Shown in pieces: positions 17,201 through 32,615 of a stretch of 64,000 nucleotides of DNA (position 1 is the first letter of the stretch; the number at the start of each line of letters is the position of its first letter). Origin of the DNA: an uncultured Clostridia bacterium (GTDB lineage: Bacteria > Bacillota > Clostridia > Christensenellales > UBA1242); assembly GCA_944349375.1 (NCBI GenBank), contig CALVMV010000002.1, forward strand, positions 35,448 through 99,447, given 5' to 3'. A program made the translations under genes and the position numbers. The notes under the pieces are model-generated. The model had not been told where the DNA came from, ran no database searches, and was given only the letters and a program-made list of their open reading frames with translations.

Positions 17201-18271
17201 ATGAAAAATAAAAAAATGGAAAAATATATTAATCTAGACTTTAAAAAGACTCCTTTGAGAATAGAAAATACCACACTTTACAGAATTAAAAGTTTCTTAA
17301 AGGGTGTAATTATTTTAGGATCATGTGTCGATATTTATTTAACATCTTCTACTTTGTATGTGCTTTATAATAACAAAGCTCAAAATCTCACAAACGATTT
17401 TGATACAGACAAAGTAATTGATGATAACGGAAATGAAATAGAAGTAGATGACAACGGCCAAATTAATCCATACCCTGTATCTGATGAAGAAAAACAACAA
17501 GTTATCTCTAAATATAAGCAATTTTTGAGTAATGAAACAAAAAATTTTGGGATCACTGATGTCATAAATAAAATAATTTCAGTAGATTGTATTCAAATAA
17601 GAGAGCAAATAATTGAGGATACTTACAAAAACTATTTAATTACAATTAAATTTGAAACAACTGATGAAAAGAACAATTCAAATACATATGAATTACAATA
17701 TTATGCTGATAAAGATTTTTCTTTAACTACATCTGACCAATCAGATGTTAACAAGTTAAATGAACTAATCAACTATTTACAAAATCCTGATTACTGTGCT
17801 TTGTATAATTTAAACCAAATGAGCGAACTATCAAAAGAAATTATGGACATTTTGATAAGTAGAGGCAATAAAGATATTTCTTTTGTTGGGCAAAGCATAA
17901 AAACACAGCACAATTCGGGTGATACATTATATTTAATACCAGTCTATCACACTGATGGCAAGATTGATGTCTTGACAACCTCGATTCAATCCACACAAGA
18001 CTTGGAATTTGAATTTGGAAGTTGGTATGAAGATCAATTAGCGCCTGAAAAAGCTTTTATTGAACAATTAGCGGGCAAAGATGAATATTTCACAAAAACT
18101 GAAAAATCATCAGGTTCTAGCTTAACTGAGATAAATTCTATTTTACAAGAGTATCAAGATTCTAATAAAGATGCTGAAGAAGATGAAAAAGAACAAGCAC
18201 AAAATCTAAAAAAAGAATACAATTTTTATAGCTATATAGATAAATTTTATAGCGAAATTATAGAGAAATAA
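17201..18271 (+). CDS. Hypothetical membrane-anchored protein with an acidic C-terminal region
   Basis: 356 aa. One predicted TM helix (VIILGSCVDIYLTSSTLYVLY). No motif I recognise. No clear RBS. The ATG at 17216 is an alternative start. Confidence 0.5.
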   Translation: MKNKKMEKYINLDFKKTPLRIENTTLYRIKSFLKGVIILGSCVDIYLTSSTLYVLYNNKAQNLTNDFDTDKVIDDNGNEIEVDDNGQINPYPVSDEEKQQVISKYKQFLSNETKNFGITDVINKIISVDCIQIREQIIEDTYKNYLITIKFETTDEKNNSNTYELQYYADKDFSLTTSDQSDVNKLNELINYLQNPDYCALYNLNQMSELSKEIMDILISRGNKDISFVGQSIKTQHNSGDTLYLIPVYHTDGKIDVLTTSIQSTQDLEFEFGSWYEDQLAPEKAFIEQLAGKDEYFTKTEKSSGSSLTEINSILQEYQDSNKDAEEDEKEQAQNLKKEYNFYSYIDKFYSEIIEK

Positions 18272-18302
18272 AAAAAACTTCTTGTTTTCAAGAAGTTTTT
18301 TT
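18272..18302. terminator. Bidirectional terminator shared by convergent genes
   Basis: AACTTCTT-GTTTTC-AAGAAGTT flanked by an A-run and a T-run. It lies between the stops at 18271 (+) and 18301 (-). Confidence 0.75.
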
Positions 18303-21300
18303 ATTCTTCATATTTTTTTAATTTTTTCTTATTTCTAATTAAGTAAATTATATAGCAAATTACAAATAATCCTAAGACTCCAATACAAACATAAGATACC
18401 ACATCAATCCAAGCATCGTTGTCTGTCATAATGACAAATTCTCCTAGTTCGTCAATGTTGATTACAATTTCTCCATTTTCATTTTGACAATTAACTAAAA
18501 CATATTCTCCATTTGTATTTTTATGATAAACATAAATATTGTTTCTATCTGCAAAACCATCTGTCAGCTTTATTGTTAATTGTATAGTGCTATCAAGATC
18601 AACTCTTTCTCCGTCTTTTTCAAGCCATATAGAAAAACCTGTTATTACTTGATATTTGTTTAGTCCCATATCTTCACGAGCAATATCAAAATTAATAAAA
18701 CTTAAATTTGTTCCGTTATATAAACAAGCACTATCTAAAGCTTCTATAACGACTGTTTCTTCTTCCGAAGCAAGTTTGTTATAAGTAATTGAACCTGTAA
18801 CATCTGTAGGAAGGATAAGATTATAATTATGAGCTTTGTCTCCAACTAAAGTTATATCATAAAAGGTAACAGGTAAATTATCTCCAACCTCAGATGTAGA
18901 AAATCTAGCACAATTGTTTTTATCATAATATAGAGAAACATTTTTATCAACTAACCCTGACACTACAGGTGCTTTTATTGTAGCTGTATCAGTTCCATCA
19001 TAAATCTTATCATAAACAGAAGCTAACATATAAACATCTTTTTTCTCAATTACTAAGTAAGCTTCTTCTATTGTAATGTTATAATTTACATTAGACAAAT
19101 TTGAAATCATTTTATAGACACCGACATCTTCACCTTGTTCCCTAGAAATATTACCATATAATATGTCGTTGTTAATAAGTTGCCCTTCTACAATTGTATA
19201 AGTAAACACTGGATCCATTTGACCATATATCTTTTCATAATTTTCGGTTTTGACAACTATTTCAATAGGCTTAATTACAAATACACCTTTTGTAAACACA
19301 ATAGTATAATTCCTACCAAGATTTAGACTGCTTCTAATATCATAAATACCAGCATTTTCGCCTGCAACACGGGTTATTGTACCTGTGATTTCATCACCAT
19401 CTAAAATTTCCCCGCTTATTATTTGATATTCAAGTTGTGGATCTTCTTCACCATAAATCTTACTTGCATCTAATGCTTTTATTTCTATTACTCTAGGAGT
19501 TACCTCAAAATAATAATTCTCAAAAATAATTTCATAATTATCGTGTTGTAAAGTTGAATAAATTTTATATGAACCAACATTTTCATATAAATATGGGTCG
19601 TTTTCTGTTGTTGGTTTATCACGATATAAATAACCACTTAACTCGTCATCATTAACCAAATTGCCAACTATGATATAGGTCATTTCAGGTTCATCTTCTC
19701 CATAAACTTTTGATAAGTTTTGTGGGATAATTTGTATTACTCTTTTTTCAATTACAAATTCATTTGAAACAAAAGTCAAAATGTAATTTTCGTTTAAAGT
19801 TAATGAACCTTGATAAATTTCATAAGAGCCAAGTGTTTCTCCTTGCGCTCTTGATAACGCACCAACAAAATCATCATCAAATTTAAGTTCTCCACTTGTG
19901 ATTTTATAACCAATTATTGGGTCTGCATCTCCATATTGCTTATTGGTTAAATTTGCAGTAACCTGTATCGTTTGTGGAACAATTTCTAAAATATTTGGTT
20001 CAAAAACAACTTGATAGTTTTGTCCTAAATTATATGTCCCTTGATTTATTTGGTATGTTCCTACATTTTCGCCTTGTTCACGAACCATTTGTCCTTGAAT
20101 TATATTTGATAAAATATCATTATTTTTAAGTAGTCCATCAACTATAATAGCATCATAATAAGGATCTTCATCACCATAAATTTTTACTTTTGATTCTGCT
20201 TTAAGCGTTATTTTGCTTTTAGTTATGTTTAAAACTCCTGGAACAAAAGTTATTGAATATCTAGAGTCATTAGATGACTCTAAGACCATTTCATACTCGC
20301 CCACATTTTCACCATAAACTCTTTTTATAGTTACATTTACAGGTTGCCCTTCCACTAAATTAGTCGCTGAATAAGTAAATTCGGGATCTTCATCTCCATA
20401 TACTTTTGTCGCATCATCTGCTACAATGGTTATAGGTCTTTTATTAATGATAAAATTTAAATCTTCAAAAATAATATTATAATTGTCGCTAAAAAGCATA
20501 TTATCAGTTTTAATATGATAAATACCTACATTTTCGCCTTCTTCTCTTGTTAAAATTCCAACAATAACATCTTCTAATGTATCATTAAATTGTAATTGCG
20601 ATGTATTTATAAGTGAAATATTAAATTCAGGATCTTCATCTCCATAAGTTTTTGACAAATTGTCAACTCTTAAATTAAGATCTCTTGGTAAAATTGAAAA
20701 TACATTATTTCCGTTAAGTGTTATAGAGTAATTAGGATTATTAGCACTATTTAAGTCATCTAAATAGTATAAATATTGCCCTACATCTTCTCCACTATTT
20801 CTTTTAACAGAGCCAGTTAGCGATTCGCCTTCAACAACATTTGAAACAGAAAACTTAATTTCTGGGTCATTATCTCCGTAAATTTTTGTTAAAGAATCTA
20901 CATTTACAACAACTTCTCTTGCTCTAATTTGAATATATTCATTTAAAAATACATAATCAAATTCAAAGTTACCAAGATTTTCTCCATTAATAGAATAATT
21001 TTGTACATTAACTTTAACTTTTCCAACATCTTTGCTCTCTAAATCTGCCTCTAACTGCAACTCAAGAACTTGATTTTGTAAAGCATTTTGGAATTTAACA
21101 GCGCTTGTTACTTGATTCGTTCCATCATACTGCTTATCTTCAAAAGTTATTTCTACTGAAATAGCCCTTGGTAAAATTTCAAGATATTCTTCTACAAAGG
21201 TTATATTATAATTAGAGTTAGACAATGAACCTAATTTGATAATATATCTTCCTATTTCTTCCCCATTTTCTCTTGACAGATTTCCTGAGAAACTATCTCC

Positions 21301-23508
21301 TTCAACCAAATTTTCTACTGAATATGTTAAAATAGGGTCTCCATCACCATATTCTTTTGTTTGGTGGTTTGCAGAAATTATTACATCTCTTTTTATAATT
21401 TCACAATTTGCACTAACAAATGTTATAGAATAATTTTCATTTGAAAGTGTTCCCAATAAAATTTGATGAACACCTACATTTTCATCTTCTATAGTTAGTT
21501 CCCCTTGCAAAGTATCTCCATCTAATAAATTTGCTCTATAAGTAAGTTCAAAATCATCTCCGTAAACAGCTTTAACACTTTCTGCTTCTACTGTTATTGA
21601 TTTTGGGATAATATTTCCATATAAAGTCGAAGTAGGCATAGATATCTGATAATTATCTTTGTCTTCTCCAATTAATTGATAACTTTGAATTATTACTTCT
21701 TTACCATAACCAGCATTTGCATCTTTATAATAAGCATTTATTTCGATACCAACATCTTCATTGTTGTAAATATTAGTGAGTTTTATGTTTAAAGGAACTT
21801 CATTGCTTTGGTCATAAACTTTATCTTCTGCATAAATTTGTGCAAAAGTTAATTGTCTTTTAGTTATTGTAAAATTATAATTCTCATTTGATAACTTTAT
21901 ATCATAATTTGAGTTTGACAAAGTTCCAAGGGATATTTTGTAAACGCCTACATTTTCACCACTTTCTCTAGTTAAGTTTCCCTGTAATGAATCATTTGGC
22001 AACAATCCTTCTGACACATAACTTATAATAGAATCAGCATCACCATATTGTTTTGATAGCGTTGTAGGAGTAATAATTAAATCTCGTTTTAAGATTTCTG
22101 CATAGCTCTGTGGAATCAGTTGACTTTTCAGTTTATAGTATTGTGAATCTTTACCATCAAGAGTAATTTTTGAAGCGTCTTCAACAACTATAGCTTTATT
22201 AGTGCCAGCACTTGCAGTAGCAAAAGAAAAAGTTGTTCCTGTTAAAAATACTTCATGATTTTCTTCAACACCATCAAAGTTGAAAATTATGTCATCTTGA
22301 TTTATATTAGTTGTTCCATCATAAATTTTATTATTTACTCCAATTGAAGTTACCGAAATTTCTTTAATAAATTTTGCATAAATAACATCGTTTGCATTGA
22401 CTGTGTATAGAAATTCAACATCAGTTGATTGTAAAGTCCCGTTTATATACCAGCCTTCAAATATAAAATTGCTTTGTGGAGTGTAATGCAAAAATATTTT
22501 TCTGCCTTGTAAATAAACACCTTCTCCTGTAATTTTTGGAGGATTTTGAAAGTCTGTTTGAACTTTTACTTCAACATAACTATCACTAACTGTTAATGTT
22601 AAAACTTTTTCGCTTAAAATATAATCATCACTATAAGAATTAGCTTTACATTTCGCCTGCACTTTTATGACTGTTGAATTTGGAGCATCATCTGAGATAT
22701 ATAAAGTATTTCCAATTATATCAACATATTGACTTCCTTGTAAAACATCGTAAATAATTGCGTGGTTTACTTTAGAAAAATTCAAAAAGTTACCACTGAC
22801 ATTATTCACAGATAAAACTTCGTTAGAAGCAGATAATTTAACAGAGCCTCCGGCTGAAACAATTTGATCATCATTTTCGAAAGAAACAGAATCTATTATA
22901 GTAAATAATTTAATAGTTGGCATAGACAAAACAAAATCACTATATTTGCCTACTTCAGTTTTTGCAAGAGTGGACCATTCAAATTTTAATTCAGACGAAG
23001 ATGAATCTATTTTAATCATTTCACTTGCATATTCTGTAATATTGCCACCGTTATAATTTGTGGAAACAGATGTCTGGTTGTTTCCTTGAGTAAATGTAAC
23101 TTTTATATTTGACTGCGAGTTGCTGTTTTTTGCTTGAAAAGAAAAAGCAACTTGTGCATATACAACACCTTTTTCAATTAATACATTTATGTCGTTTGTT
23201 GTTCTAACAATAGCATACCCCGAGCTTGTTTTCCCTAATAGAAGCCCAGATGTTGGCACTAATGAATAGTAATCTCCCCCTTCATTAGAAGCCTTTGCAT
23301 TGACCAAAGTCGAATTGTTACTTTTGTCTCTAAAATAATGTTCATTAGTGTTACCGATACCCGCAGTAAGCACATAATTATTCCCTGAAATAGCTTCAAT
23401 GTCAGCCTTAACTTGTGAAATAGGATAAAAAATTGAAAGGAAAAAGAATATGCTAAGTAAAGATAGCAATAAAATTAAAATTTTTGAATTTAAAAATTTA
23501 ATTTTCAT
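18301..23508 (-). CDS. Giant surface protein (1735 aa): signal peptide, Listeria-Bacteroides-type repeat, 11 MBG (YGX-type) and 4 YDG-type modules, C-terminal TM anchor
   Basis: Signal peptide ends ...SQVKADIEA. FIFEGWYINGT fits the List_Bact repeat. Eleven recurrences of K-x-YG-(D/E)-x-DP...L-x-G-x-L-x-R-x-x-GE-x-VG-x-Y-x-I...NY-x-I-x-F. Four K-x-YDG(T) modules. C-terminal VVSYVCIGVLGLFVICYIIYLIRNKKK with no LPXTG. Confidence 0.85.
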   Translation of the reverse strand: MKIKFLNSKILILLLSLLSIFFFLSIFYPISQVKADIEAISGNNYVLTAGIGNTNEHYFRDKSNNSTLVNAKASNEGGDYYSLVPTSGLLLGKTSSGYAIVRTTNDINVLIEKGVVYAQVAFSFQAKNSNSQSNIKVTFTQGNNQTSVSTNYNGGNITEYASEMIKIDSSSSELKFEWSTLAKTEVGKYSDFVLSMPTIKLFTIIDSVSFENDDQIVSAGGSVKLSASNEVLSVNNVSGNFLNFSKVNHAIIYDVLQGSQYVDIIGNTLYISDDAPNSTVIKVQAKCKANSYSDDYILSEKVLTLTVSDSYVEVKVQTDFQNPPKITGEGVYLQGRKIFLHYTPQSNFIFEGWYINGTLQSTDVEFLYTVNANDVIYAKFIKEISVTSIGVNNKIYDGTTNINQDDIIFNFDGVEENHEVFLTGTTFSFATASAGTNKAIVVEDASKITLDGKDSQYYKLKSQLIPQSYAEILKRDLIITPTTLSKQYGDADSIISYVSEGLLPNDSLQGNLTRESGENVGVYKISLGTLSNSNYDIKLSNENYNFTITKRQLTFAQIYAEDKVYDQSNEVPLNIKLTNIYNNEDVGIEINAYYKDANAGYGKEVIIQSYQLIGEDKDNYQISMPTSTLYGNIIPKSITVEAESVKAVYGDDFELTYRANLLDGDTLQGELTIEDENVGVHQILLGTLSNENYSITFVSANCEIIKRDVIISANHQTKEYGDGDPILTYSVENLVEGDSFSGNLSRENGEEIGRYIIKLGSLSNSNYNITFVEEYLEILPRAISVEITFEDKQYDGTNQVTSAVKFQNALQNQVLELQLEADLESKDVGKVKVNVQNYSINGENLGNFEFDYVFLNEYIQIRAREVVVNVDSLTKIYGDNDPEIKFSVSNVVEGESLTGSVKRNSGEDVGQYLYYLDDLNSANNPNYSITLNGNNVFSILPRDLNLRVDNLSKTYGDEDPEFNISLINTSQLQFNDTLEDVIVGILTREEGENVGIYHIKTDNMLFSDNYNIIFEDLNFIINKRPITIVADDATKVYGDEDPEFTYSATNLVEGQPVNVTIKRVYGENVGEYEMVLESSNDSRYSITFVPGVLNITKSKITLKAESKVKIYGDEDPYYDAIIVDGLLKNNDILSNIIQGQMVREQGENVGTYQINQGTYNLGQNYQVVFEPNILEIVPQTIQVTANLTNKQYGDADPIIGYKITSGELKFDDDFVGALSRAQGETLGSYEIYQGSLTLNENYILTFVSNEFVIEKRVIQIIPQNLSKVYGEDEPEMTYIIVGNLVNDDELSGYLYRDKPTTENDPYLYENVGSYKIYSTLQHDNYEIIFENYYFEVTPRVIEIKALDASKIYGEEDPQLEYQIISGEILDGDEITGTITRVAGENAGIYDIRSSLNLGRNYTIVFTKGVFVIKPIEIVVKTENYEKIYGQMDPVFTYTIVEGQLINNDILYGNISREQGEDVGVYKMISNLSNVNYNITIEEAYLVIEKKDVYMLASVYDKIYDGTDTATIKAPVVSGLVDKNVSLYYDKNNCARFSTSEVGDNLPVTFYDITLVGDKAHNYNLILPTDVTGSITYNKLASEEETVVIEALDSACLYNGTNLSFINFDIAREDMGLNKYQVITGFSIWLEKDGERVDLDSTIQLTIKLTDGFADRNNIYVYHKNTNGEYVLVNCQNENGEIVINIDELGEFVIMTDNDAWIDVVSYVCIGVLGLFVICYIIYLIRNKKKLKKYEE

Positions 23509-23523
23509 ATTCTAATTCCTTTT

Positions 23524-26500
23524 TTAATTTAAAAATCCTAAATCTTCATCACGACGAGGTTGTCTTGTTTCAGCCAAAATTACTTGATCCCCTTCGTATG
23601 TAGTTTCTGGTTTTATGTATGGATTATTATTAGTTGCAGTCAGCAATTTAAAATCAAAATCAACAATAAATATTGCTTCTTTTATACTGCCAGTCAAGTT
23701 GGCATCAGCATAATTAAATTTGGTATTTAATTGACCTTTGTCGATTATCGCATTACTTTGGAATTCTACAATACCATTAAGAATCGCATAAATATCAACA
23801 ATTCCAAAAAGATAATAATCTTTATCACCAATAGTGTATTTATAATCTGTATAGTTTGTTCTTATGATATCTTTTAATTTAGCTATTACCCTATCAACCA
23901 TATCGCCAGCACCATAATCTTCAAAAAATCCCAAAATTGAATCTCCTTGAAATTCATCGAGAGTGAGCCAGTTATATAATCTTAAATCACCAACTATAGT
24001 CAATTTGCTTTCATATCCTTCAAGTTTAGAAGATTCATCTGGAGTAAAGCAAATACAACTAAGTAAATTTCTTGAGAAAATGCAATCTTCGACAGTAACA
24101 TCTGATGCAACAGTATCATTTTTAATTCTGTTTATTACCAATCCACCTGAATAAGAATTCCTTATGATGCAACCTTTAAAAGTTGCTTGTGCGCTCAATA
24201 CTTCTGTCGTTATAAATGCGTTTTCTATTATAGTATTGTAAATTAAAACATTTGTTGCGTGATTTGTTATAAGTAAAACTTTCCCCTTCCCATCTAGTTC
24301 AGCCAATTCTCCTTCTGATGAGAAAGATGTTCCTCTTAAGATAGCATTATCAATAACAATATTGCTTCTAGTAACATTCATTTTTACATACGCAGTATCA
24401 TTGGTGAAATCTATCATATAACCATTTCCATAAATATTAAAGTTTACATCATGATTTTCCAATGTTTTTTCAATAATTATATCTCCTTGTAAAACTATAG
24501 CAGAATAATTATTTGTTTTGTTTTCATTTGAAGTTTTAGCAAGACCTACTGCAACTAAATACTGAGAATAGTTATAAACATTATATCCATCAACAACATA
24601 GAAAGTATATGAATCTGAAACAACATTAGCACCATCATAAGGAGCAATTTGCCTTGCAGTAATAGTTACAATACCTGTTCCATAGAAAGTTATTTCGCCA
24701 TTTTGATTAACTGAGGCAATTTTGCTATTGCTAGTGGACCATTCAATCAACGAAGAATAGTCGTCATCATTAGGATAAGTTGAGTAATTCATTACATAAG
24801 AATTTGTTTGCTTTCCTGTTGAAGAAATAAATTTATTTCCGAAAACTCTATAACCACCAAAGCCATAAGAATCCTCAACTTCATCTAATTCTAGTTTAAT
24901 ATCATTGAGCTTTGTAAAGAATGTAAATGTTTTGCTATAAAAAATATCAGTATTATCAACTTTCAATGTTACTGTTACTTCACCTTCTTTCAAACCTCTA
25001 AGCCTGTAAGTTCCATCACTAACTTTAGTCAAAGATGCAATTTGAGCATTGTCTAAACTAAAAGTATATGTAAATCCTTCTGCATCTATAGGGTAAGGCA
25101 AAACTGTTAAATTAACATATTCGTTTACATACATCTTATCCTTTGTATCCGTGAAAGAGATGCTTTTTATTTCTTTGGTATATTCAATTGTGATTTGTTT
25201 TTTAATTGAACTATCATTTTTTAAAGAAATGGTAATTGTAACTTTGCCAAGCCCTGAAAATTCAACTGCACCATAATCATCTACTGTCGCTATAGAAGGG
25301 TTGCTTGATGAATATGTAAGAAGTTTATCATTGGCGTCGCTAGGCAAAACTGTGGCATTAATTTGATATCCTGGACTAGATACGAAAACTTCTTGCGATT
25401 CTACTGAAATCGAAGTAGCTTTTCTTTCAACTTTAACAGTATAAGAACCTAGATTAATATTATTAGCATAGATATCAAAAGTTGCTTGCCCGCCGTTTAA
25501 AGCCCTAATAACACCATCTTCAAATTCTATTACAGCTTTTTGTGAATCATTTCTTTGCTCTACTAAATTTTTAATAGTAATTTCAACATTTGCATTATCA
25601 CTTGGCACAACTTTATTGAGAACAAGTTTCTTTTCTTCTCCAGCTTGCATTGTTAAAATATTATTCTCAAATGATGAAGTATCAAGTGATGCTTCAATTA
25701 ATGTATCCCCTGCATAGTAGAAAATGTAAGAAACCGATTTTACTCCATTTGTAGTATCTTCACTAGTAAATGTAATGGTAACTGTTCCTATCTCATTAAA
25801 AGTTATGAGTCCTTTTTCAACTGTAGCTTTGCTCTTATCTGAAACTGTATAAACAAAATTCCTATTTGTAGCATCTAAAGGATAAACTAATTCTTCAAAA
25901 GAAATTTGATTTTTGCTCGTTACATAGTAGTTTTGATAAAATTCGAGTCCTTGTCCAAAATCAATTTCAATTTTTTCAACAGGACTGCTTACCGTGATTA
26001 TGCAATCAGAATAAATTTCTTGTCCTAAAGAATTAAGTGTATAAATGCGTACAGTTGCTGTTCCACCATACAAACCTTGAATTAACCATTTATCTCCACT
26101 TTGAGTTAAACTGATAACATCATTATCACTTCCATCTGCTGAGTTTTGAGATACAATTTTATACTGAATATCTTTGTTTGTAGCATTTGCAGGCTGCATT
26201 TGAGTAACATAAAGAGTAAAACTACTATTTTTTGAAATTGTCTTTTCTTGTGCATTTAATGTCAAACTATAAAGGTAACCCATAGTGCTTGTAACTGTAA
26301 CTTGTTTTGTCAAGTTGCTTCCATCCATAGTAGAAATAGTTACAACCACAGTTCCAGCACTTGTAAAGATAACTTTGTTTCCATCTAAAGTTGCAAAATC
26401 AACTTTTGGCATAGAATAAGATAAATTTTTGTTGGTCGCAGTGCTAGGAAGAACAGAAGCATTTATAGTGGCTTGGGCTAGTGCAGTAACAATATTTTCT

Positions 26501-29500
26501 TCACTGACTTGAATAGATGAAACCTTTTTTATAACATTAATTTTGATATTTTTAGTTATTCCATTTGAAAGTTCTATGATAATTTGACTATATCCACCAC
26601 TTAAAGCAGTTATTGTAAGATTTCCACTATCAATCGAAACAACATTAACACCTGTTGTGTGATTTATTTCTCTAATCAAAATCTGTTTGTTTGTAGTATC
26701 ATAAGGCACCCATTTTTCAACTTCAACCTTGATGCTCTCTCCAACATTTAAAGATATTTCATCATCTATGTTAATTTCTGCATCTAAAGCATCGCCGCCA
26801 GTATATCTAAAATTAAAATTCTTTGAGCAATTACCATCAGCAGAACTTACTTTTAATGTCAGAGTTCCAGATTTTGCCCAATATAACTTTCCACCATTTA
26901 TATAAGCAATACTCTCCGAAACACCATTTGAATTGTATGAACTAACTATAGAGAAATTGAAATCAACATTTGAAGCACTAGATGGCATAGCAGAAAAAGT
27001 TAAATCAACTTCTTCTTTTGCTGTAGTAAGATACTCATTATACTGTTCAATATCTCCACTATAGATGATATTTTCAACAAGTTGAGAAATTATTATCTTG
27101 ATTTGATAACTTTTTATTGGACTTCCAAATTGGTCATACAAATAACAAACTATTTCAGTTTCTCCATTTGCAACAGCTATTATTGTTTCTCCATCAATTA
27201 TCAAAACATCTTGGTTTGCACCCTCAGCAAAAACAATTTCGATTTGATTATAATCAATTCCTTGCCCTGAAAAATCTAATTTATTACTATCACCAACAAA
27301 CATTTCAATTTCGTCAAGATCTGGATCAATAGTGCCTGTTCCTTTAGCAATCTTTTCAATTGTAAAAGAATAAGTTGCTTGCTGATTATCCTCACTTCTA
27401 GCAAGAATCTCTACTACTCCATCTTTTAAGAAATACAAAATATTGCCTTCTATATATGCTAACTCTGGGTTAAGCACTTCAAAAATAACATTCTTGTTTG
27501 TTGCATCAATAGGTTTAACTATCGCATCCAACTCAATACTTGAATTTGTAGTTTGTATATTTGATGGTGATATTTCAATACTTTCTACTTTTTGGTAAAC
27601 TTCAATTTCATAAGTAAGAACAACAGTCGCAGAAACATAGACTGTTAAAGTTGCTTTCCCGCCAGCAATAGCAGTCAGAGTGTTTCCATTAACTTGCAAA
27701 ACCTTGCCTAAAGGGCTTGAAGTCGATTGGTTTGATACTTTTAATGTTATATTTTTATTCATTGTATTTGAAGGGAAAATGTTTCTGATTGCAATTATAT
27801 AACTTTCCCCCACACTAATCTGAGAAGGCATTATTTCAACGCCATTGTCTGTTAAAATTCCAACTTCTGCTGAAATAGGATATGAACCTGTATATCTTAC
27901 TTGAACTTCTTCTTGTAAACCACCTATAGATGTTGCAATTAAGGTAACCGTTCCTGTTTGGTTAAATTTAAAAGTTTCTCCCAAAATTACCGCTATACTC
28001 TTATCATCAACAGACCAAGAAATATTTTTATTTGTAGCATCACTAGGATAAGAAACTGCACTAAATGAAACAGTGTTTTCGGCAGTTATGTAAACACCAT
28101 CTTCTTGCTCTAGATCAATAAATATTTCTATTCTTTCAATTTCTCTTAAAACTGTTACTTGCAAAGTCTCAGTCTTTTTCTCACCATTTATTAAAACAAG
28201 CGATACTTCTACAGTAGCAGTTCCTCCACCTATACCATGAATAGAGCCATCAGGCAAAACTTCAATAACATCTCCCTCTCCGGAATTATTTTGCTGTGAA
28301 AGAATTGATAATTGTATAGCTTTTGTGTCTGCATTTGAAGGGAATAATATATAGTCTATCAATTTTGATTGTCCATAATTTAAAGTAAGAGAATTCTCAG
28401 AAAGACTAAATTCTTTTGCTTTCCCTGCTGTATATTCAACTTGAATTGAAGTTGAAATATCACTGTAATCATTATTTGCAAAAATAGTAATAGTAGCAGT
28501 TGTGTGATTATCTGTTAAGAAAGTTACCAATCCACTATCGCTAACTGAAACATTAGAACTGCTAGAATGATAGAAAAATTTATTATTTGTTGAATCTTCT
28601 GGGAATGAAGTCGGAGCAAGCTGAACAGTCTTTTGCGCAGTAACTACATCATCGATTAATATGCCTGTTGCAGGACTTTCAACATAAACAATAATTTGTT
28701 GTGTAATATATTGCCCTTTAGACTTTTCAACTTTAACAGTAATTGTAGCAGTTCCACCACCTACAAAATATAAGTAACCATTGCTAACAAATGCGATATC
28801 CTCATTAGACGATGAAAAAGAAACTTCTGTGCTAGCTAAAGAGGAAGGCACTGTAGAGTATTCTATAACTTGTGCAGCATCTCCAATAGTAGCAGAAATA
28901 GAATATTTTTCTAGCGTTAAACTTTGTGCATAACCAGCAGTATAAACTATAGTCATAGTTTTAGAAAATCCACCATCTACTGTTGTTAAAGTTACATTGA
29001 CCTGTCCAGCCTTTAAGAATGTAACTCTACCTAAACTATTAACAGATGCAACAGTTGGGTCATCAATTGTAAATTCAACAGATGTATTTGTTGCATTGCT
29101 AGGATAAATTTGATAACCAATAAAATAAGTGTCTTCACCAGTAATTGCATAATCAGTATTTAAAATGATATCACTTACAGGATTGATTATAGCTAAATTT
29201 ACAAAATCGGTATAATTTCCATCTTCAGAAACAGCAGTTATAGTAACATAACCAACTTTTAATCCTGTTACTAAGCCATTTTGGTCAACTTTTGCAATAG
29301 TAGGATCTGAAGAAACAAAACTAACATTTTTATTTTCAGCTTCGTTCGGCAACACCGTTGCTGACAATTGAACAGTTGTTCCCACATGAACATCTGTATA
29401 AGGTGCTGTCAAAATTACTTGGTGAACAGCAGTATCGGTAACATAGAAATAACAGCTAGCCATTTTATTTCCATCAGCAGTCGTTGCTGTGATATAACCA

Positions 29501-29781
29501 TTACCAAATCCAACAAAAGTTACATTGCCATCAAGGTCAATTCTAGCAACATTCTCGTTAGTACTAACCCAAATAATCTCTTGATTTGTAGCATTTGAAG
29601 GATAAATAGTTGCTTCAAGTGAAATCTTATCATCTATATTTGCAATAACTTCAGTTTTATCTAACTCTATTCTATCAACGGATATAGAAACATTGCCGAT
29701 AACAACCTCGACAGTAAAATTAACCAAGATTATAATTACAAGAGGAATTGCAATCATTAAAAATATCATTAATTTTTTCAT
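23524..29781 (-). CDS. Giant surface protein (2085 aa): N-terminal signal anchor, 19 Big_2-like Ig modules, C-terminal right-handed beta-helix-like domain
   Basis: N-terminal TM MIFLMIAIPLVIIILVNF. Nineteen recurrences of the P-x-(D/N)-A-T-N-(K/Q)-x-(I/V) ... V-(D/S)-x-x-G-x-(V/I)-T-x-x-x-x-G-x-(A/V)-T-(I/V) pattern. The C-terminal ~430 aa carry repeated hydrophobic-Asn/Ile rungs (NIVIDNAILRG, NVLIYNTIIENA, FKGCIIRNS, VTVEDCIFSRN). ATGA start/stop overlap with the upstream permease. Confidence 0.85.
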   Translation of the reverse strand: MKKLMIFLMIAIPLVIIILVNFTVEVVIGNVSISVDRIELDKTEVIANIDDKISLEATIYPSNATNQEIIWVSTNENVARIDLDGNVTFVGFGNGYITATTADGNKMASCYFYVTDTAVHQVILTAPYTDVHVGTTVQLSATVLPNEAENKNVSFVSSDPTIAKVDQNGLVTGLKVGYVTITAVSEDGNYTDFVNLAIINPVSDIILNTDYAITGEDTYFIGYQIYPSNATNTSVEFTIDDPTVASVNSLGRVTFLKAGQVNVTLTTVDGGFSKTMTIVYTAGYAQSLTLEKYSISATIGDAAQVIEYSTVPSSLASTEVSFSSSNEDIAFVSNGYLYFVGGGTATITVKVEKSKGQYITQQIIVYVESPATGILIDDVVTAQKTVQLAPTSFPEDSTNNKFFYHSSSSNVSVSDSGLVTFLTDNHTTATITIFANNDYSDISTSIQVEYTAGKAKEFSLSENSLTLNYGQSKLIDYILFPSNADTKAIQLSILSQQNNSGEGDVIEVLPDGSIHGIGGGTATVEVSLVLINGEKKTETLQVTVLREIERIEIFIDLEQEDGVYITAENTVSFSAVSYPSDATNKNISWSVDDKSIAVILGETFKFNQTGTVTLIATSIGGLQEEVQVRYTGSYPISAEVGILTDNGVEIMPSQISVGESYIIAIRNIFPSNTMNKNITLKVSNQSTSSPLGKVLQVNGNTLTAIAGGKATLTVYVSATVVLTYEIEVYQKVESIEISPSNIQTTNSSIELDAIVKPIDATNKNVIFEVLNPELAYIEGNILYFLKDGVVEILARSEDNQQATYSFTIEKIAKGTGTIDPDLDEIEMFVGDSNKLDFSGQGIDYNQIEIVFAEGANQDVLIIDGETIIAVANGETEIVCYLYDQFGSPIKSYQIKIIISQLVENIIYSGDIEQYNEYLTTAKEEVDLTFSAMPSSASNVDFNFSIVSSYNSNGVSESIAYINGGKLYWAKSGTLTLKVSSADGNCSKNFNFRYTGGDALDAEINIDDEISLNVGESIKVEVEKWVPYDTTNKQILIREINHTTGVNVVSIDSGNLTITALSGGYSQIIIELSNGITKNIKINVIKKVSSIQVSEENIVTALAQATINASVLPSTATNKNLSYSMPKVDFATLDGNKVIFTSAGTVVVTISTMDGSNLTKQVTVTSTMGYLYSLTLNAQEKTISKNSSFTLYVTQMQPANATNKDIQYKIVSQNSADGSDNDVISLTQSGDKWLIQGLYGGTATVRIYTLNSLGQEIYSDCIITVSSPVEKIEIDFGQGLEFYQNYYVTSKNQISFEELVYPLDATNRNFVYTVSDKSKATVEKGLITFNEIGTVTITFTSEDTTNGVKSVSYIFYYAGDTLIEASLDTSSFENNILTMQAGEEKKLVLNKVVPSDNANVEITIKNLVEQRNDSQKAVIEFEDGVIRALNGGQATFDIYANNINLGSYTVKVERKATSISVESQEVFVSSPGYQINATVLPSDANDKLLTYSSSNPSIATVDDYGAVEFSGLGKVTITISLKNDSSIKKQITIEYTKEIKSISFTDTKDKMYVNEYVNLTVLPYPIDAEGFTYTFSLDNAQIASLTKVSDGTYRLRGLKEGEVTVTLKVDNTDIFYSKTFTFFTKLNDIKLELDEVEDSYGFGGYRVFGNKFISSTGKQTNSYVMNYSTYPNDDDYSSLIEWSTSNSKIASVNQNGEITFYGTGIVTITARQIAPYDGANVVSDSYTFYVVDGYNVYNYSQYLVAVGLAKTSNENKTNNYSAIVLQGDIIIEKTLENHDVNFNIYGNGYMIDFTNDTAYVKMNVTRSNIVIDNAILRGTSFSSEGELAELDGKGKVLLITNHATNVLIYNTIIENAFITTEVLSAQATFKGCIIRNSYSGGLVINRIKNDTVASDVTVEDCIFSRNLLSCICFTPDESSKLEGYESKLTIVGDLRLYNWLTLDEFQGDSILGFFEDYGAGDMVDRVIAKLKDIIRTNYTDYKYTIGDKDYYLFGIVDIYAILNGIVEFQSNAIIDKGQLNTKFNYADANLTGSIKEAIFIVDFDFKLLTATNNNPYIKPETTYEGDQVILAETRQPRRDEDLGFLN

Positions 29782-31391
29782 GCTTCAATACTCCTATATC
29801 TATTCTCAAGCTTATAAAATAAGCGGAAAAGTTCAATACACATATAAGGGATACCAAACCCAAACAAAACAATATAGATTGCAGGAACAGATACAAACAT
29901 TGAAACTACAATGGCACCTATCCCCATAAGAACTGCTATAATAAACCCTATACTAATGCTTGCGTTGATATTGCTATTTGTAGTTGTAATCTCTTTATTA
30001 TCAAGAAACATAAATTGAGGTCTTTTTATATCAATAAGTATTGCACTTGAAATTGAACCGATAACAATCATGCAAACTGCTAAAGCAATAAGCATAGAAT
30101 TTGCATAAGACAAAAATCCTGCAAGTGAAAGTACTAAGCAACTCACAATAACTGAAGGAATAGATACAATAACATACATCAAAAATTTAACTGTTATTTG
30201 TTTTCTGAAAGAAACAGGAATGATTTTAGTGTGGAAGAAATTCCCACCTTCTCTAGTAATGGAAGTAGCAGCAAAAGAAGTCCCCATGCTCAAAAACATT
30301 AATAACACAAGAACGGCAATCCCCGGCAAAATACCTGCCCCAACTTGTCCAACTCCAATATTAGAAGCAATTTGACTTGAGAAGAAAACCATTAAAGGCG
30401 TTGTAATGATGATAGTCAAATATTGAAAAGAATAATTAACTGAACGGAAAATTGATAAAAATTCTCTAAAGAATAGTGCCTTAGTAACACTTCTTTGTTT
30501 TATAACTGATTTGTTTCGATAAACACTACCACCATTTTCAATGTTGTTTAAAAGTATGTTCAAATAAGATTTGTTTGCAAACACCAATACGAGCAATAAA
30601 AGAACAAAGGCAACAGTTATGTTAACAATCGCACTAGGCCAAAAACGATATAACAACAAACTGTTTTTAAATAGTAAAGGCAAATACAAAAAGTTTGCAA
30701 TAAACTTAATGTCAATTATAACTTGTGTTTGTAAAATGGAAGATACATCTGAACTATTTAATATTTCCATAATGAACTTAAGTCCATAAGTATAAATTGT
30801 AAAGCCAGCAGCAACAAAAATGATATACAAAAACAGCATAACAACAAATTTATTTTTCAAATAACCAACGATATACATAGCAGGAACAGAAAGCAAAACA
30901 CCAATTAAAAAAGGTATCACTGGCAAAAAAATAAGATTTGGCAAAAGCATAATATAAAAAATAGCCGATTGCATTGTTTGTATCCCATATATAATAAATA
31001 CAGGCAAAGTCAAAAATGTAGTAAAAAGAAATTCATAGATGAAAAGATATGTAATTTTTGCTAAAAATATCATTTTCCCATTTAAAGGTAATTTCAACAA
31101 ATCGGAATCTGAGTTATAGAAAAGAGTTTTTGTGGTTAGACTAAGCCCAAAAAATAACTGTACAATTTGAATTAAACAAGTGTAATAAACTATAAATTCT
31201 TGTGCTAAATCAGCTTTAACACAAATTCTAATAAGACTATTAAAAACATACAATAAAGCTCCAACTAATACACAAAGACCTAAAATTGTAATTAAATATT
31301 TTAATATTTTCAAAAAAAGATGCCCCTTAACCCTATTTTTAGGTGCACGATTTAAAAACTCAAGTTTTAAAAGTGTTAAGAATTGAGTCAT
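29778..31391 (-). CDS. Polytopic membrane permease of a putative ABC exporter (ABC_export-like)
   Basis: 537 aa with about 12 or more TM helices. Sits 17 nt downstream of the ABC ATPase gene. RBS AAAGGAGAAAAG. The family name is recalled from size and topology, not searched. Confidence 0.6.
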   Translation of the reverse strand: MTQFLTLLKLEFLNRAPKNRVKGHLFLKILKYLITILGLCVLVGALLYVFNSLIRICVKADLAQEFIVYYTCLIQIVQLFFGLSLTTKTLFYNSDSDLLKLPLNGKMIFLAKITYLFIYEFLFTTFLTLPVFIIYGIQTMQSAIFYIMLLPNLIFLPVIPFLIGVLLSVPAMYIVGYLKNKFVVMLFLYIIFVAAGFTIYTYGLKFIMEILNSSDVSSILQTQVIIDIKFIANFLYLPLLFKNSLLLYRFWPSAIVNITVAFVLLLLVLVFANKSYLNILLNNIENGGSVYRNKSVIKQRSVTKALFFREFLSIFRSVNYSFQYLTIIITTPLMVFFSSQIASNIGVGQVGAGILPGIAVLVLLMFLSMGTSFAATSITREGGNFFHTKIIPVSFRKQITVKFLMYVIVSIPSVIVSCLVLSLAGFLSYANSMLIALAVCMIVIGSISSAILIDIKRPQFMFLDNKEITTTNSNINASISIGFIIAVLMGIGAIVVSMFVSVPAIYIVLFGFGIPYMCIELFRLFYKLENRYRSIEA

Positions 31392-31408
31392 CTTTTCTCC
31401 TTTATCTT

Positions 31409-32449
31409 TTATTTTTTATCTTTTTGAATTTTAGATTTTAAAACTTCTAACTGCTCTTTAATTTTTTTAGAGTATTCTTCGTTAAGTTTCTTTGATTGAA
31501 GTTTCTTTTCTGATTTTATATCTCTTATTTCTTTTTTGGTTGTTTTTTTAACTTGCAAATTTTCTGCTTTAATTTTTTTATCTTCTTCTTTCTTTTCTTT
31601 TGCAAGGATAGCTTTTTGTTCTTTTTCAGCTTTTAATTTTTCATCTCTTTCTTTTTTCTTTTGTGCTTTTTCAGCTTTAAGTTTCAATTTTTTCTCTTTT
31701 TTATCTTCAAACTTAATAACTTTTGCTTTGCTATCTTTAGTCATATTTAAGAAATAAGTTTCAAGAGGGACTTCACTTTCTTTCATAAATTTTTTGACAT
31801 CAATTATTTCCATAAGCTGACCACGATTCATAATAGCCACCCTATCACAAAGCTTTTCAACCATATCAATATTATGAGATGAGAAAAATACGCAATTACC
31901 CAGTCTTTTATGCTCTTTCATGTATTCCCTAATTTCAAAAGTGCTTTGAGGATCTAAGCCCATTAGAGGTTCATCAAGCACCCAAAATTTTGGATTATGT
32001 ATTAAAGCTGCAATAATACAGATTTTTTGTTTCATACCATGAGAATAAGAACGAATTTGATTATCTATCGCATGAGACATACTAAACAAATTAGCAAACT
32101 TTTCAATTCTTTCTTCTATTATATCTTTTGGCACTCTATAGATGTTTCCCATATAGTTGACATATTCTCTTCCTGTCAAATTTTCATAAACAGCATGATT
32201 ATCAGGGACATAACCAATATTTAACTTGGCTTCAATAGGATTTTTTTGAATATCATAACCACAAACTTTTATAGTTCCTTCATCAAAAGGCAATATTCCT
32301 GTTAAACATTTAATTGTAGTACTTTTTCCAGCACCATTTTTACCCAAAAAGCCAAAAATTTCCCCTTCATTTAAAGTGAGATTTAAATTTTTTACTGAAT
32401 AAAAGTTTGAATTTTTATATCTTTTTGTAAGACCGACAATTTCTAACAT
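31409..32449 (-). CDS. ABC transporter ATP-binding protein with a ~100-aa Lys/Glu-rich C-terminal tail
   Basis: Walker A GKNGAGKST, signature YSHGMKQK, Walker B WVLDEPLMGLD. Tail: KKEKKLKLKAEKAQKKKERDEKLKAEKEQK... Start set at the ATG at 32449, because the track TTG at 32503 coincides with the -35 box. Confidence 0.85.
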   Translation of the reverse strand: MLEIVGLTKRYKNSNFYSVKNLNLTLNEGEIFGFLGKNGAGKSTTIKCLTGILPFDEGTIKVCGYDIQKNPIEAKLNIGYVPDNHAVYENLTGREYVNYMGNIYRVPKDIIEERIEKFANLFSMSHAIDNQIRSYSHGMKQKICIIAALIHNPKFWVLDEPLMGLDPQSTFEIREYMKEHKRLGNCVFFSSHNIDMVEKLCDRVAIMNRGQLMEIIDVKKFMKESEVPLETYFLNMTKDSKAKVIKFEDKKEKKLKLKAEKAQKKKERDEKLKAEKEQKAILAKEKKEEDKKIKAENLQVKKTTKKEIRDIKSEKKLQSKKLNEEYSKKIKEQLEVLKSKIQKDKK

Positions 32450-32474
32450 ATTTAATCCTTTTTTTTCGATAAAA

Positions 32475-32503
32475 ATTTTACCACATAATTGCCAAAATGT
32501 CAA
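32475..32503 (-). promoter_or_regulatory. Strong sigma-A-type promoter of the ABC / giant-protein operon
   Basis: Minus strand: TTGACA (32503-32498), a 17-nt spacer, then TGG-TAAAAT (extended -10, 32480-32475), about 25 nt upstream of the ATG at 32449. Confidence 0.6.
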
Positions 32504-32587: not shown

Positions 32588-32615
32588 TCAAAAAAACGAT
32601 ACTTAAGTATCGTTT
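32588..32615 (-). terminator. Rho-independent terminator overlapping the murC stop codon
   Basis: Minus strand: AAACGATAC-TTAA-GTATCGTTT followed by TTTTTT. The left arm includes the last murC codons. Confidence 0.7.

What the first reader, a model, noticed from the sequence alone, without database searches (positions are those of the whole stretch)
18301..32503. One-promoter 14-kb operon couples an ABC exporter to two giant TM-anchored repeat proteins
Seen in the sequence:
- A near-consensus extended -10 promoter lies at 32475-32503.
- It is followed, with no intervening terminator, by an ABC ATPase carrying a 100-aa Lys/Glu tail and a 537-aa polytopic permease.
- Next comes a 2085-aa protein with an N-terminal signal anchor, 19 Big_2-like modules and a beta-helix-like C-terminus.
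- Last is a 1735-aa protein with a signal peptide, a List-Bact repeat, 11 MBG and 4 YDG modules, and a C-terminal TM anchor.
- The permease stop and the Big_2 gene start overlap as ATGA, and the two giant genes are 15 nt apart. This implies co-transcription, and translational coupling at the permease/Big_2 junction.
- Neither giant protein has an LPXTG, SLH or choline-binding anchor that I can see.

Inference: this is a dedicated module in which an ABC system of unknown substrate works with a two-component giant adhesin or sheath. It could act in secretion, surface maturation or glycan handling via the beta-helix domain. I am not aware of a characterised system with this gene order.
Basis: partly seen in the sequence, partly recalled or inferred. 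Interest (0 to 1): 0.6.

Follow-up and report, generated by a model that had tools for sequence, protein, structure and literature searches.

The report
ABC-coupled giant surface fibre operon
A four-gene operon in uncultured gut Clostridia links an ABC-type membrane ATPase machine to two giant, constant-length cell-surface fibre proteins; the pairing recurs in distant relatives, and I found no characterised counterpart.

Summary
Four minus-strand genes lie between two strong terminators, behind one extended -10 promoter: ATPase 32449-31409, 537-aa permease, 2085-aa Big_2 protein and 1735-aa MBG/YDG protein. The junctions are ATGA and 15 nt.

Comparative genomics supports a dedicated module. 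In 45 of 45 informative orthologous loci (permease identity 42-88%) the Big_2 giant directly follows the permease, while the flanking genes change. The promoter is conserved in 36/42 loci, against 0-1 upstream of the internal genes.

The ancestral core is the ATPase, a PF16949-type permease and a Big_2 protein with a family-specific C-terminal domain. This core recurs at 29-33% permease identity in about 12 further lineages. The MBG giant is a later, lineage-specific addition.

New findings:
- The Big_2 protein's N-terminal hydrophobic helix is among its most conserved segments (71% against 44% overall; the top-ranked window in the distant family). The MBG signal peptide is not conserved.
- Both giants keep near-constant lengths.
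- The C-terminal domain shows no residue typical of a catalytic site conserved in both families.

Best reading (confidence about 0.4): the ABC-2-class complex is a dedicated membrane partner that acts on that helix to assemble or hold a surface fibre. The mechanism is untested. I rate it a new variant of a known kind, interest about 0.6.

The parts
32594..32615 (-). Intrinsic terminator of the upstream murC gene. It insulates the operon from read-through.
   Evidence: Hairpin AAACGATAC-TTAA-GTATCGTTT followed by a T-run on the minus strand. MurC was identified by Pfam.
32475..32503 (-). Sigma-70-type promoter with an extended -10: TTGACA, 17 nt, TGgTAAAAT.
   Evidence: Best site in 17-34 kb. 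Conserved 46-68 nt upstream of the ATPase ATG in 36/42 orthologous loci (28 with TGn), against 0-1 loci for the internal genes.
31409..32449 (-). ABC ATPase, 346 aa, of the DrrA/ABCA/NosF (ABC-2) class. Walker A, signature, Walker B (LDEP) and H-loop motifs are intact.
   Evidence: PF00005 at 3e-30. The best NCBIfam hit is drrA, below its cutoff. The best PDB hits are ABCA4/ABCA1 and, among prokaryotes, NosF. The 346-aa product is on record in the public protein collection.
31412..31711 (-). Lys/Glu-rich C-terminal tail of the ATPase, 100 aa, 54% K+E. It is a labile, lineage-specific appendage.
   Evidence: Composition and orthologue tail lengths of 0-263 aa; the tail is absent in 12/44 orthologues.
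29778..31391 (-). Polytopic permease, 537 aa, 10-12 TM helices, with no large extracytoplasmic domain. It belongs to a PF16949-type (ABC-2 clan) family.
   Evidence: The direct PF16949 hit is below threshold (19.7 bits against 25.7). The profile-profile match to PF16949-annotated homologues has 100% probability, E 5e-71, over the full length. Of 30 family members, 18 hit PF16949 and 11 hit ABC2_membrane_4. The AF2 model is all-helical, pLDDT 67.
23524..29781 (-). Big_2 giant, 2085 aa: N-terminal hydrophobic helix, 18-19 Big_2 modules and a family-specific C-terminal domain. Its start overlaps the permease stop (ATGA).
   Evidence: There are 37 complete orthologues of 2047-2156 aa, SD 23. All 16 full-length same-species variants listed, of an 18-member cluster, are exactly 2085 aa.
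29707..29781 (-). N-terminal hydrophobic helix of the Big_2 protein, MKKLMIFLMIAIPLVIIILVNFTVE. It is unusually conserved and is the proposed recognition or docking element for the permease.
   Evidence: Identity is 71% against 44% for the whole protein, rank 14 of 2061 windows. The equivalent MKKFLIxxIxxIPIVV helix ranks 1 of 908 in the distant family, whereas the MBG signal peptide is only 29% conserved.
23527..24591 (-). C-terminal domain of the Big_2 protein (residues 1731-2085). It is beta-helix-like with a conserved P-[FY]-I-K-P-G motif near the end, and is probably the distal tip.
   Evidence: PF13229 hits in 5/34 orthologues. The domain profile hits distant-family proteins at E 1e-7 to 4e-23. 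Only 48 hits were found in 1.84 billion representative proteins, all C-terminal. No D/E/K/R/H residue is conserved in both families. The AF2 model is poor, pLDDT 52.
18301..23508 (-). MBG/YDG giant, 1735 aa: cleavable-type signal peptide, unknown N-terminal domain of about 285 aa, a weak Flg_new_2 repeat, 4 YDG and 11 MBG_2 modules, a C-terminal domain and a TM anchor. It is a lineage-specific addition.
   Evidence: Orthologues are 1703, 1764 and 1778 aa. The gene is absent in L037, L047 and L071, where dapB follows.
18337..18402 (-). C-terminal TM anchor of the MBG protein (residues 1703-1724), followed by the basic tail RNKKKLKKYEE.
   Evidence: Hydropathy score 2.64. The TM segment, the basic tail and the juxtamembrane motif ELGEFVIMTDNDxWID are conserved in the L072 orthologue.
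18271..18302 (.). Bidirectional intrinsic terminator directly after the MBG stop codon. It marks the end of the operon.
   Evidence: A 14-bp stem flanked by A-runs and T-runs.

Best explanation
What it is:
- The four genes are one transcription unit that encodes a cell-surface fibre system.
- Its ancient core has three parts: an ABC-2-class ATPase, a PF16949-type polytopic permease of 10-12 TM helices, and a Sec-inserted Big_2 stalk protein.
- The stalk has about 18-19 Ig-like modules (probably several tens of nm long, by my own estimate of a few nm per module, not computed) and is tipped by a family-specific, probably non-catalytic, beta-helix-like domain.
- In this gut Clostridia lineage a second stalk protein (MBG/YDG) has been appended. 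It has the opposite polarity, is held by a C-terminal TM anchor, and is of comparable, equally constant length.

Proposed mechanism:
- The ABC complex does not pump a small solute. It is the dedicated membrane partner of the Big_2 protein.
- It recognises the protein's unusually conserved N-terminal hydrophobic helix inside the bilayer.
- It uses ATP binding and hydrolysis to assemble, hold or release the base of the fibre. This resembles ABC complexes that work with bitopic or extracytoplasmic partners.

Shown versus inferred:
- Shown: operon structure, co-conservation, domain architecture, helix conservation and length constancy.
- Inferred: helix-permease contact, the role of ATP, and any pairing of the two giants.
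For: - Gene order: ATPase-permease-Big_2 is kept in 45/45 informative orthologous loci although the flanks differ. It is also kept in about 12 distinct distant loci at 29-33% permease identity.
- Reverse test: starting from the C-terminal-domain side, the ABC pair again lies immediately upstream.
- Translational-coupling distances: permease to Big_2 is -4 to +23 nt, median 1, n=45. Big_2 to MBG is -11 to +42 nt, median 12, n=33.
- A single conserved promoter.
- The C-terminal domain is essentially exclusive to these proteins: 48 hits in 1.84e9 representatives.
- The N-terminal helix is 71% conserved against 44% overall, and 72% against 39% in the distant family, where it ranks 1 of 908. The control signal peptide of the MBG protein is 29% against 39%.
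- Conservation decreases from the membrane-proximal end to the tip.
- One ABC pair serves 1-4 tandem paralogues, all of which keep the same helix.
- Lengths are constant, and the internal repeats are old: 27% and 38% pairwise identity.
- The ATPase motifs are intact and of the ABC-2 class.
Against: - There is no direct evidence of a helix-permease contact. No complex model could be run.
- A conserved V-x-G at residues 27-29 could be a signal-peptidase site. If it is, the helix would be removed from the mature protein.
- The permease model is only moderate (pLDDT 67) and has no significant structural match.
- In several distant loci, nucleotide-sugar biosynthesis genes lie next to the module. 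That fits a glycan-export role at least as well.
- No transcript, protein or phenotype data exist, because every carrier is a metagenome-assembled genome.
Confidence: 0.4

Rival explanations
1. Glycopolymer or lipid-linked glycan exporter. The ABC-2 pair exports a surface glycan, and the Big_2/beta-helix protein binds, processes or is decorated by it.
For: - The ATPase belongs to the class that includes Wzt/KpsT/TagH-type exporters.
- The weak shape matches of the permease model include KpsM and Wzm.
- In distant loci the module sits beside NagB, SIS, PGM/PMM, a GlmU-like hexapeptide transferase and a membrane CapD/PglF-type dehydratase.
- Beta-helix domains often bind carbohydrate (PMC9210967).
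Against: - No glycosyltransferase or sugar-nucleotide gene lies in or beside the operon in the window, and none was among the flank genes annotated in three orthologous loci.
- The permease is one long 10-12-TM protein with no match to solved ABC-2 permeases.
- The C-terminal domain is the least conserved part and has no D/E/K/R/H conserved in both families.
- This reading does not explain the extreme conservation of the N-terminal helix.
Confidence: 0.22
2. NosDFY-like mechanotransmission. ATP-driven movements of the permease are passed to a docked beta-helix domain, which then performs an extracytoplasmic task.
For: - The pairing of an ABC-2-class ATPase with a beta-helix partner is the NosDFY logic.
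- NosF is among the best prokaryotic PDB matches to the ATPase.
- NosY halves are among the weak structural matches to the permease model.
- One orthologue hits the NosD Pfam family at E 0.0024.
Against: - The beta-helix domain is at the far end of 18-19 Ig modules, away from the membrane helix.
- Only 1/34 orthologues gives a weak NosD hit.
- The permease is not NosY-like in length or sequence.
- No nosZ or nosL was seen in the window ORFs scanned.
Confidence: 0.1
3. Dedicated protein exporter, analogous to type I secretion. The ABC system itself translocates or releases the giant proteins across the membrane.
For: - Giant Ig-repeat adhesins of Gram-negative bacteria depend on dedicated ABC exporters (my own knowledge of the LapA and SiiE systems).
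- One ABC pair serves 1-4 paralogous giants.
- The conserved N-terminus could be a targeting signal.
Against: - Both giants carry Sec-type N-terminal hydrophobic signals.
- The operon has no ABC_membrane (PF00664), C39, HlyD or TolC component and no RTX repeats.
- To my knowledge, ABC-2 permeases are not known to pass polypeptides of about 2000 aa.
Confidence: 0.08
4. Functionally unrelated neighbours. The ABC pair is a drug, peptide or ion efflux or immunity pump that merely shares a promoter with adhesin genes.
For: - The ATPase scores with DrrA, lantibiotic-protection and PSM-export families, all below their cutoffs.
- No substrate is known.
Against: - Adjacency with coupling-range spacing persists across more than 55 loci and two families at 29% identity, while all flanking genes change.
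- The C-terminal domain occurs nowhere else.
Confidence: 0.05

Closest known systems
PF16949 (ABC_tran_2) putative ABC exporter permeases paired with a DrrA-class ATPase
   Same: The window permease aligns over its full length with PF16949-annotated proteins (hhalign 100%, E 5e-71). They share the motifs FRSxNYSFQY and SFAATSxxREGxNFxHTK and the same gene neighbours.
   Different: The window subfamily scores below the Pfam threshold (19.7 bits against 25.7). The family has no described function; in the searchable literature it appears only in a list of accessions.
NosDFY (ABC-2 transporter NosFY with the periplasmic beta-helix protein NosD; PDB 7o0y and related entries)
   Same: An ABC-2-class ATPase and permease are genetically coupled to an extracytoplasmic beta-helix protein rather than to a transported solute.
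   Different: NosY is a 6-TM homodimer, whereas this permease is a single 537-aa protein. NosD docks directly on NosY, whereas here the beta-helix-like domain sits behind 18-19 Ig modules. There is no nos gene context, and the NosD Pfam family is hit by only 1/34 orthologues.
LptB2FG-LptC and MlaFEDB (ABC complexes with a bitopic partner whose N-terminal TM helix packs against the permease; my own knowledge)
   Same: A single-pass N-terminal helix belongs to an elongated extracytoplasmic partner encoded next to the ABC genes. That fits the conserved helix seen here.
   Different: Those are Gram-negative lipid-transport machines with beta-jellyroll or MCE domains. No sequence or significant structural relationship was found.
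Fibrillar adhesins (repeat stalk plus tip domain; PMC9210967)
   Same: Both giants have Big_2, Flg_new-like and MBG/YDG stalk modules and a distinct terminal domain. Beta-helix or pectate-lyase-like tips are a recognised class.
   Different: Their lengths are constant across 37 species and within species, and their repeats are old (27-38% identity). They lack LPXTG, SLH and choline-binding anchors, have TM segments instead, and are obligately linked to an ABC pair.
Type I secretion of giant Ig-repeat adhesins (LapA/LapBCE and SiiE; my own knowledge)
   Same: A giant repeat adhesin is encoded together with a dedicated ABC ATPase system.
   Different: There is no HlyB-type exporter, membrane-fusion protein, outer-membrane component or C-terminal RTX signal. 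The host is a spore-forming Clostridia lineage, and the giants carry N-terminal Sec-type signals.
Dedicated signal peptides of Gram-positive giant adhesins (YSIRK/GS and the accessory-Sec KxYKxGKxW motif; my own knowledge)
   Same: An N-terminal signal conserved beyond what generic Sec targeting requires is associated with a dedicated handling pathway.
   Different: The motif is different (MKK[LF][LM]Ix5[IL]P[ILV][IV][VI]). There are no SecA2/SecY2 genes, and the partner here is an ABC-2-class pair.

Membership tests
PF16949 (ABC_tran_2) permease family | Score at or above Pfam's gathering threshold for the model | tested here: not met
   The window permease scores 19.7 bits against a cutoff of 25.7. 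Of 30 family members, 18 match at E<=0.01, best 5e-14.
PF16949 (ABC_tran_2) permease family | Full-length homology to annotated members | tested here: met
   hhalign of A1 against A4: 100% probability, E 4.9e-71, 525 aligned columns.
ABC-2 / type V ABC exporters | Nucleotide-binding subunit of the DrrA/ABCA/NosF class with intact catalytic motifs | tested here: met
   drrA subfamily at 7.7e-68, below its curated cutoff. ABCA4, ABCA1 and NosF are the top PDB hits. The catalytic motifs were read directly from the sequence.
ABC-2 / type V ABC exporters | Membrane subunit matching the ABC2_membrane clan and fold | tested here: inconclusive
   - The window protein itself has no ABC2_membrane hit.
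- Of 30 relatives, 11 hit PF12730 (best 9e-6) and 1 hits PF01061.
- Foldseek gave no match with E<0.4. The best-shaped matches are KpsM, NosY and CcmB halves (TM about 0.5) and the fused permease 8k1m_B (TM 0.41).
- No internal duplication is detectable.
NosDFY | NosD-family beta-helix partner (PF05048) | tested here: not met
   Only 1 of 34 orthologous C-terminal domains hits NosD (E 0.0024). The window sequence has no hit.
NosDFY | 6-TM NosY permease and nosZ/nosL gene context | tested here: not met
   The permease is 537 aa with 10-12 TM helices. No nos genes were seen in the window ORFs scanned.
Type I secretion adhesin systems | HlyB-type ABC (PF00664 membrane domain), membrane-fusion protein and RTX or C-terminal secretion signal | tested here: not met
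   None of these families is hit by the four proteins or the neighbouring ORFs scanned.
Sortase-anchored (LPXTG) surface proteins | An LPXTG motif immediately before a C-terminal hydrophobic segment and basic tail | tested here: not met
   The regex finds only LPSTA at residue 1111 of the Big_2 protein and VPTSG at residue 84 of the MBG protein, far from the C-termini. The MBG protein has the hydrophobic segment and basic tail but no motif.
Fibrillar adhesins (operational class) | Repeat stalk, distinct terminal domain and surface anchor | tested here: met
   18 Big_2, 11 MBG_2 and 4 YDG modules; separate terminal domains; TM segments.
Fibrillar adhesins (operational class) | Demonstrated adhesive function of the tip domain | not testable with these tools
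   No ligand or binding data exist. The models of the tip domains are poor or could not be made.

The most novel reading that the evidence does not exclude
The PF16949-type ABC pair together with the conserved N-terminal helix defines an unrecognised pathway in monoderm bacteria. In this pathway an ABC-2-class machine recognises a dedicated membrane helix and assembles, anchors or releases giant Ig-stalk fibres. It would be a new surface-display or secretion route, comparable in standing to accessory Sec or sortase pathways. The two constant-length giants would form a paired fibre of fixed height.
Probability: 0.25. Interest if true: 0.8.

Novelty: new variant of a known kind. Interest (0 to 1): 0.6.

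Why it matters
- The module is fixed in dozens of species-level lineages of uncultured Clostridia from human, mouse and rabbit guts. Its core extends to anaerobic-digester, sludge and other communities, yet none of its parts has a known role.
- It gives the orphan PF16949 permease family a concrete and testable partner.
- It points to a specific element, the conserved N-terminal helix, that can be mutated or swapped.
- It suggests how wall-anchor-less giant proteins may be held on, or delivered to, a Gram-positive-type surface.
- If the ABC machine acts on a protein helix rather than a solute, that widens the known functions of ABC-2 systems. It may also explain how these unculturable gut bacteria build long surface fibres.

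Tried and rejected
- Structure of the C-terminal domain: only 3 admissible homologues were available. The model had pLDDT 51.6, and Foldseek matched only the leading Big_2 module.
- Word-indexed homologue searches for that domain returned mostly generic Big_2 proteins.
- PDB sequence searches with the permease profiles, the C-terminal domain and the MBG N-terminal domain found nothing.
- Internal duplication of the permease: not detectable. There is also no similarity to the window's other ABC-2 permease.
- PADLOC: only generic ATPase similarity, so there is no link to a defence system.
- Literature: PF16949 appears only in an accession list. The MBG/YDG and giant-protein/ABC searches were unproductive.
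- Families considered and rejected as memberships: NosDFY, type I secretion and LPXTG/sortase anchoring. A catalytic role for the beta-helix-like domain was also rejected, because it has no D/E/K/R/H conserved in both families.
- The 364-aa ATPase ORF that starts at TTG 32503 was rejected as an artefact.
Full report
**Observation**

The window is low-GC DNA (about 29% GC) from the chromosome of a spore-forming Clostridia lineage. It carries enolase, MurC, MurB, Era, YbeY, YqfD, SpoIVA, EF-Tu and EF-G genes. Four consecutive minus-strand ORFs occupy 32449-18301.

The promoter reads TTGACA (32503-32498), 17 nt, TGgTAAAAT (32480-32475), and is the best-scoring site between 17 and 34 kb. The mechanical ORF list extends the ATPase to a TTG that is in fact the -35 box. 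The real start is ATG 32449, giving 346 aa, and this product is on record in the public protein collection.

The unit is bracketed by the murC terminator (32615-32594) and by a 14-bp bidirectional hairpin that begins at the MBG stop codon (18302-18271). Inside the unit there is only a weak 6-bp hairpin. The permease stop and the Big_2 start overlap as ATGA, and 15 nt separate the two giant genes.

**Domains**

- The ATPase has PF00005 and scores best with DrrA-type families. In the PDB it scores best with ABCA proteins and, among prokaryotic entries, with NosF. Its tail is 100 aa and 54% Lys+Glu.
- The permease gives only a sub-threshold PF16949 hit.
- The 2085-aa protein has one hydrophobic segment (residues 4-22) and 18 Big_2 modules by iterative HMM. 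A 125-aa gap could hold a nineteenth.
- The last 355 aa of that protein have no Pfam hit of their own. Among 34 orthologues, 5 hit Beta_helix (best 5e-10), 5 hit Pectate_lyase_5 and 1 hits NosD.
- The 1735-aa protein has 11 MBG_2 and 4 YDG modules and a sub-threshold Flg_new_2 repeat. It also has a classical signal peptide and a C-terminal TM segment with a basic tail.
- Neither giant has LPXTG near its C-terminus or any wall-binding domain hit.

A profile of permease homologues retrieved 48 species-level loci from genome assemblies. All are uncultured gut Clostridia MAGs, and one is labelled Christensenellales. Annotating them against the window proteins gave the following:

- The order ATPase-permease-Big_2 giant holds in every one of the 45 loci that extend past the permease, down to 42% permease identity.
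- The MBG giant follows in 33 of those loci.
- The MurC/MurB/Era/YbeY/YqfD synteny is seen only in the closer loci (11 of 48, permease identity 50-88%). In the other loci the flanks are unrelated.
- The deepest branch (L037, L047, L071) has the Big_2 giant but then dapB, so it has no MBG gene.
- Gaps stay in the translational-coupling range. Permease to Big_2 is -4 to +23 nt (median 1), and Big_2 to MBG is -11 to +42 nt (median 12).
- A TTGAC[AT]-17-TGnTAnAAT promoter lies 46-68 nt upstream of the ATPase start in 36/42 loci. The same pattern occurs upstream of the permease, Big_2 and MBG genes in 0/45, 1/45 and 0/31 loci.

**A deeper core**

Homologues at 29-33% identity carry PF16949. The two permease families align over their full length (100% probability, E 5e-71).

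In every distant locus that extends far enough, the ABC pair is followed by one to four paralogous proteins of 800-950 aa. This covers L049, L053, L057-L066/68, L073 and L076, from digesters, sludge and guts. These proteins have Big_2 domains, and most have a C-terminal domain that the window-family profile detects at E 1e-7 to 4e-23. Their N-terminus reads MKKFLIxxIxxIPIVV, which clearly resembles the window's MKKLMIFLMIAIPLVIIILV.

L034 carries an orthologous and a paralogous module side by side.

An exhaustive phmmer search with the C-terminal domain against 1.84 billion representative proteins found only 48 hits. All lie at the extreme C-terminus of proteins of about 2020-2100 aa or about 800-885 aa, or in fragments. 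The domain is therefore essentially private to this module.

**New features bearing on mechanism**

1. The N-terminal 25 residues of the Big_2 protein are 71% identical across 37 orthologues, against 44% for the whole protein (rank 14 of 2061 windows). The most conserved blocks all lie in residues 1-405, and the C-terminal domain is the least conserved part at 38%. In the distant family the helix is the single most conserved window (72% against 39%, rank 1 of 908). The signal peptide of the MBG protein serves as an internal control: it is less conserved than its mature part (29% against 39%).
2. Lengths are fixed. The Big_2 protein is 2047-2156 aa (SD 23) across 37 species, and all 16 full-length same-species variants listed are exactly 2085 aa. 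The MBG protein is 1703-1778 aa across four species, and all 13 full-length same-species variants listed are 1735 aa. The internal repeats are old, at 27% and 38% mean pairwise identity.
3. Residues conserved in the C-terminal domains of both families are Asn, Gly, Cys, Tyr, Trp and Pro only. No Asp, Glu, Lys, Arg or His is conserved in both.
4. The MBG C-terminal TM segment, its basic tail and the juxtamembrane motif ELGEFVIMTDNDxWID are conserved in the one orthologue whose 3' end was recovered.
5. The Lys/Glu tail varies from 0 to 263 aa and is absent in 12/44 orthologues.

**Interpretation**

The dedicated-module idea is well supported. Most likely (about 0.4), the ABC-2-class complex is the obligate membrane partner of the Big_2 fibre and acts on its conserved N-terminal helix. 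This reading explains four things:

- the translational coupling to the permease gene;
- the retention of the same helix in all tandem paralogues served by one ABC pair;
- the proximal-to-distal conservation gradient;
- the lack of catalytic signatures at the tip.

Whether the helix stays as an anchor or is cleaved at the conserved V-x-G (residues 27-29) cannot be decided here.

The main rival (about 0.22) is export of a glycan. It is suggested by the nucleotide-sugar genes beside several distant modules and by the ATPase class. No such genes accompany the operon in the window or among the flank genes annotated in three orthologous loci, and this rival does not explain the helix. The NosDFY-like, type-I-like and 'unrelated neighbours' readings are less likely for the reasons listed under the rival explanations.

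**Limits**

- The permease model is moderate (pLDDT 67) and has no significant PDB match. Its weak matches are type V ABC membrane domains.
- The model of the C-terminal domain is poor.
- No complex prediction, transcript data or cultured carrier was available.
- A literature search found no description of the system.

**Verdict**

I rate the system a new variant of a known kind: an ABC machine with a dedicated extracytoplasmic partner, combined with fibrillar surface proteins. Interest is about 0.6.

Noticed in passing
window 41525-45607 (-): Another large ORF of 1360 aa with only a weak Big_13 hit. It is probably a further surface protein of this genome.
   Followed up: no
window 9232-13002 (-): A 1256-aa protein that combines DUF4011, an SF1 helicase (AAA_11/AAA_12) and a C-terminal MTES_1575/DUF559 nuclease domain. 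This is a defence-like helicase-nuclease architecture.
   Followed up: no
window 793-4299 (-): A second, unrelated ABC-2 system: two ATPase genes (322 and 319 aa) and a 529-aa ABC2_membrane_2 permease. It shows no similarity to the operon's permease.
   Followed up: partly
L034 370-5859 and 8647-21014: One rabbit-gut MAG carries two modules in tandem. The first is a paralogous set: ATPase at 47% identity, permease at 27%, and a 1058-aa Big_2 protein with a related N-terminal helix. The orthologous four-gene set follows.
   Followed up: partly
window 23527-23620 (-), and the C-termini of the Big_2/C-terminal-domain proteins in L001-L076: A motif P-[FY]-I-[KE]-P-G lies about 25-30 residues before the stop codon and is conserved in both the close and the distant family. 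Pro2058 is invariant. No explanation was found.
   Followed up: partly
L049, L053, L059, L063, L068 (downstream of the distant modules): Recurrent neighbours of the distant modules are:
- an N-anchored protein of about 330 aa without a Pfam hit;
- a PNP_UDP_1 protein;
- a membrane CapD/PglF-type dehydratase;
- PGM/PMM and a GlmU-like transferase;
- a giant TM-anchored protein of 1500-4100 aa, which is Flg_new_2-bearing where Pfam data are available.
   Followed up: partly
window 22715-22744 (-): A promoter-like site (TTTACA, 18 nt, TATAAT, with TG; 11/12) lies inside the MBG coding region. It is not conserved in orthologues and is consistent with chance in AT-rich DNA.
   Followed up: yes
window 17201-18271 (+): A 356-aa ORF without any Pfam hit converges on the same bidirectional terminator. 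A weak homologue (26% identity) sits in the same position in L072.
   Followed up: partly
L070 1-3974 and L071 1-2977: Further giant genes with no recorded Pfam hit (products of 3330 and 2588 aa) lie near the module in other lineages. These genomes appear rich in giant proteins.
   Followed up: no
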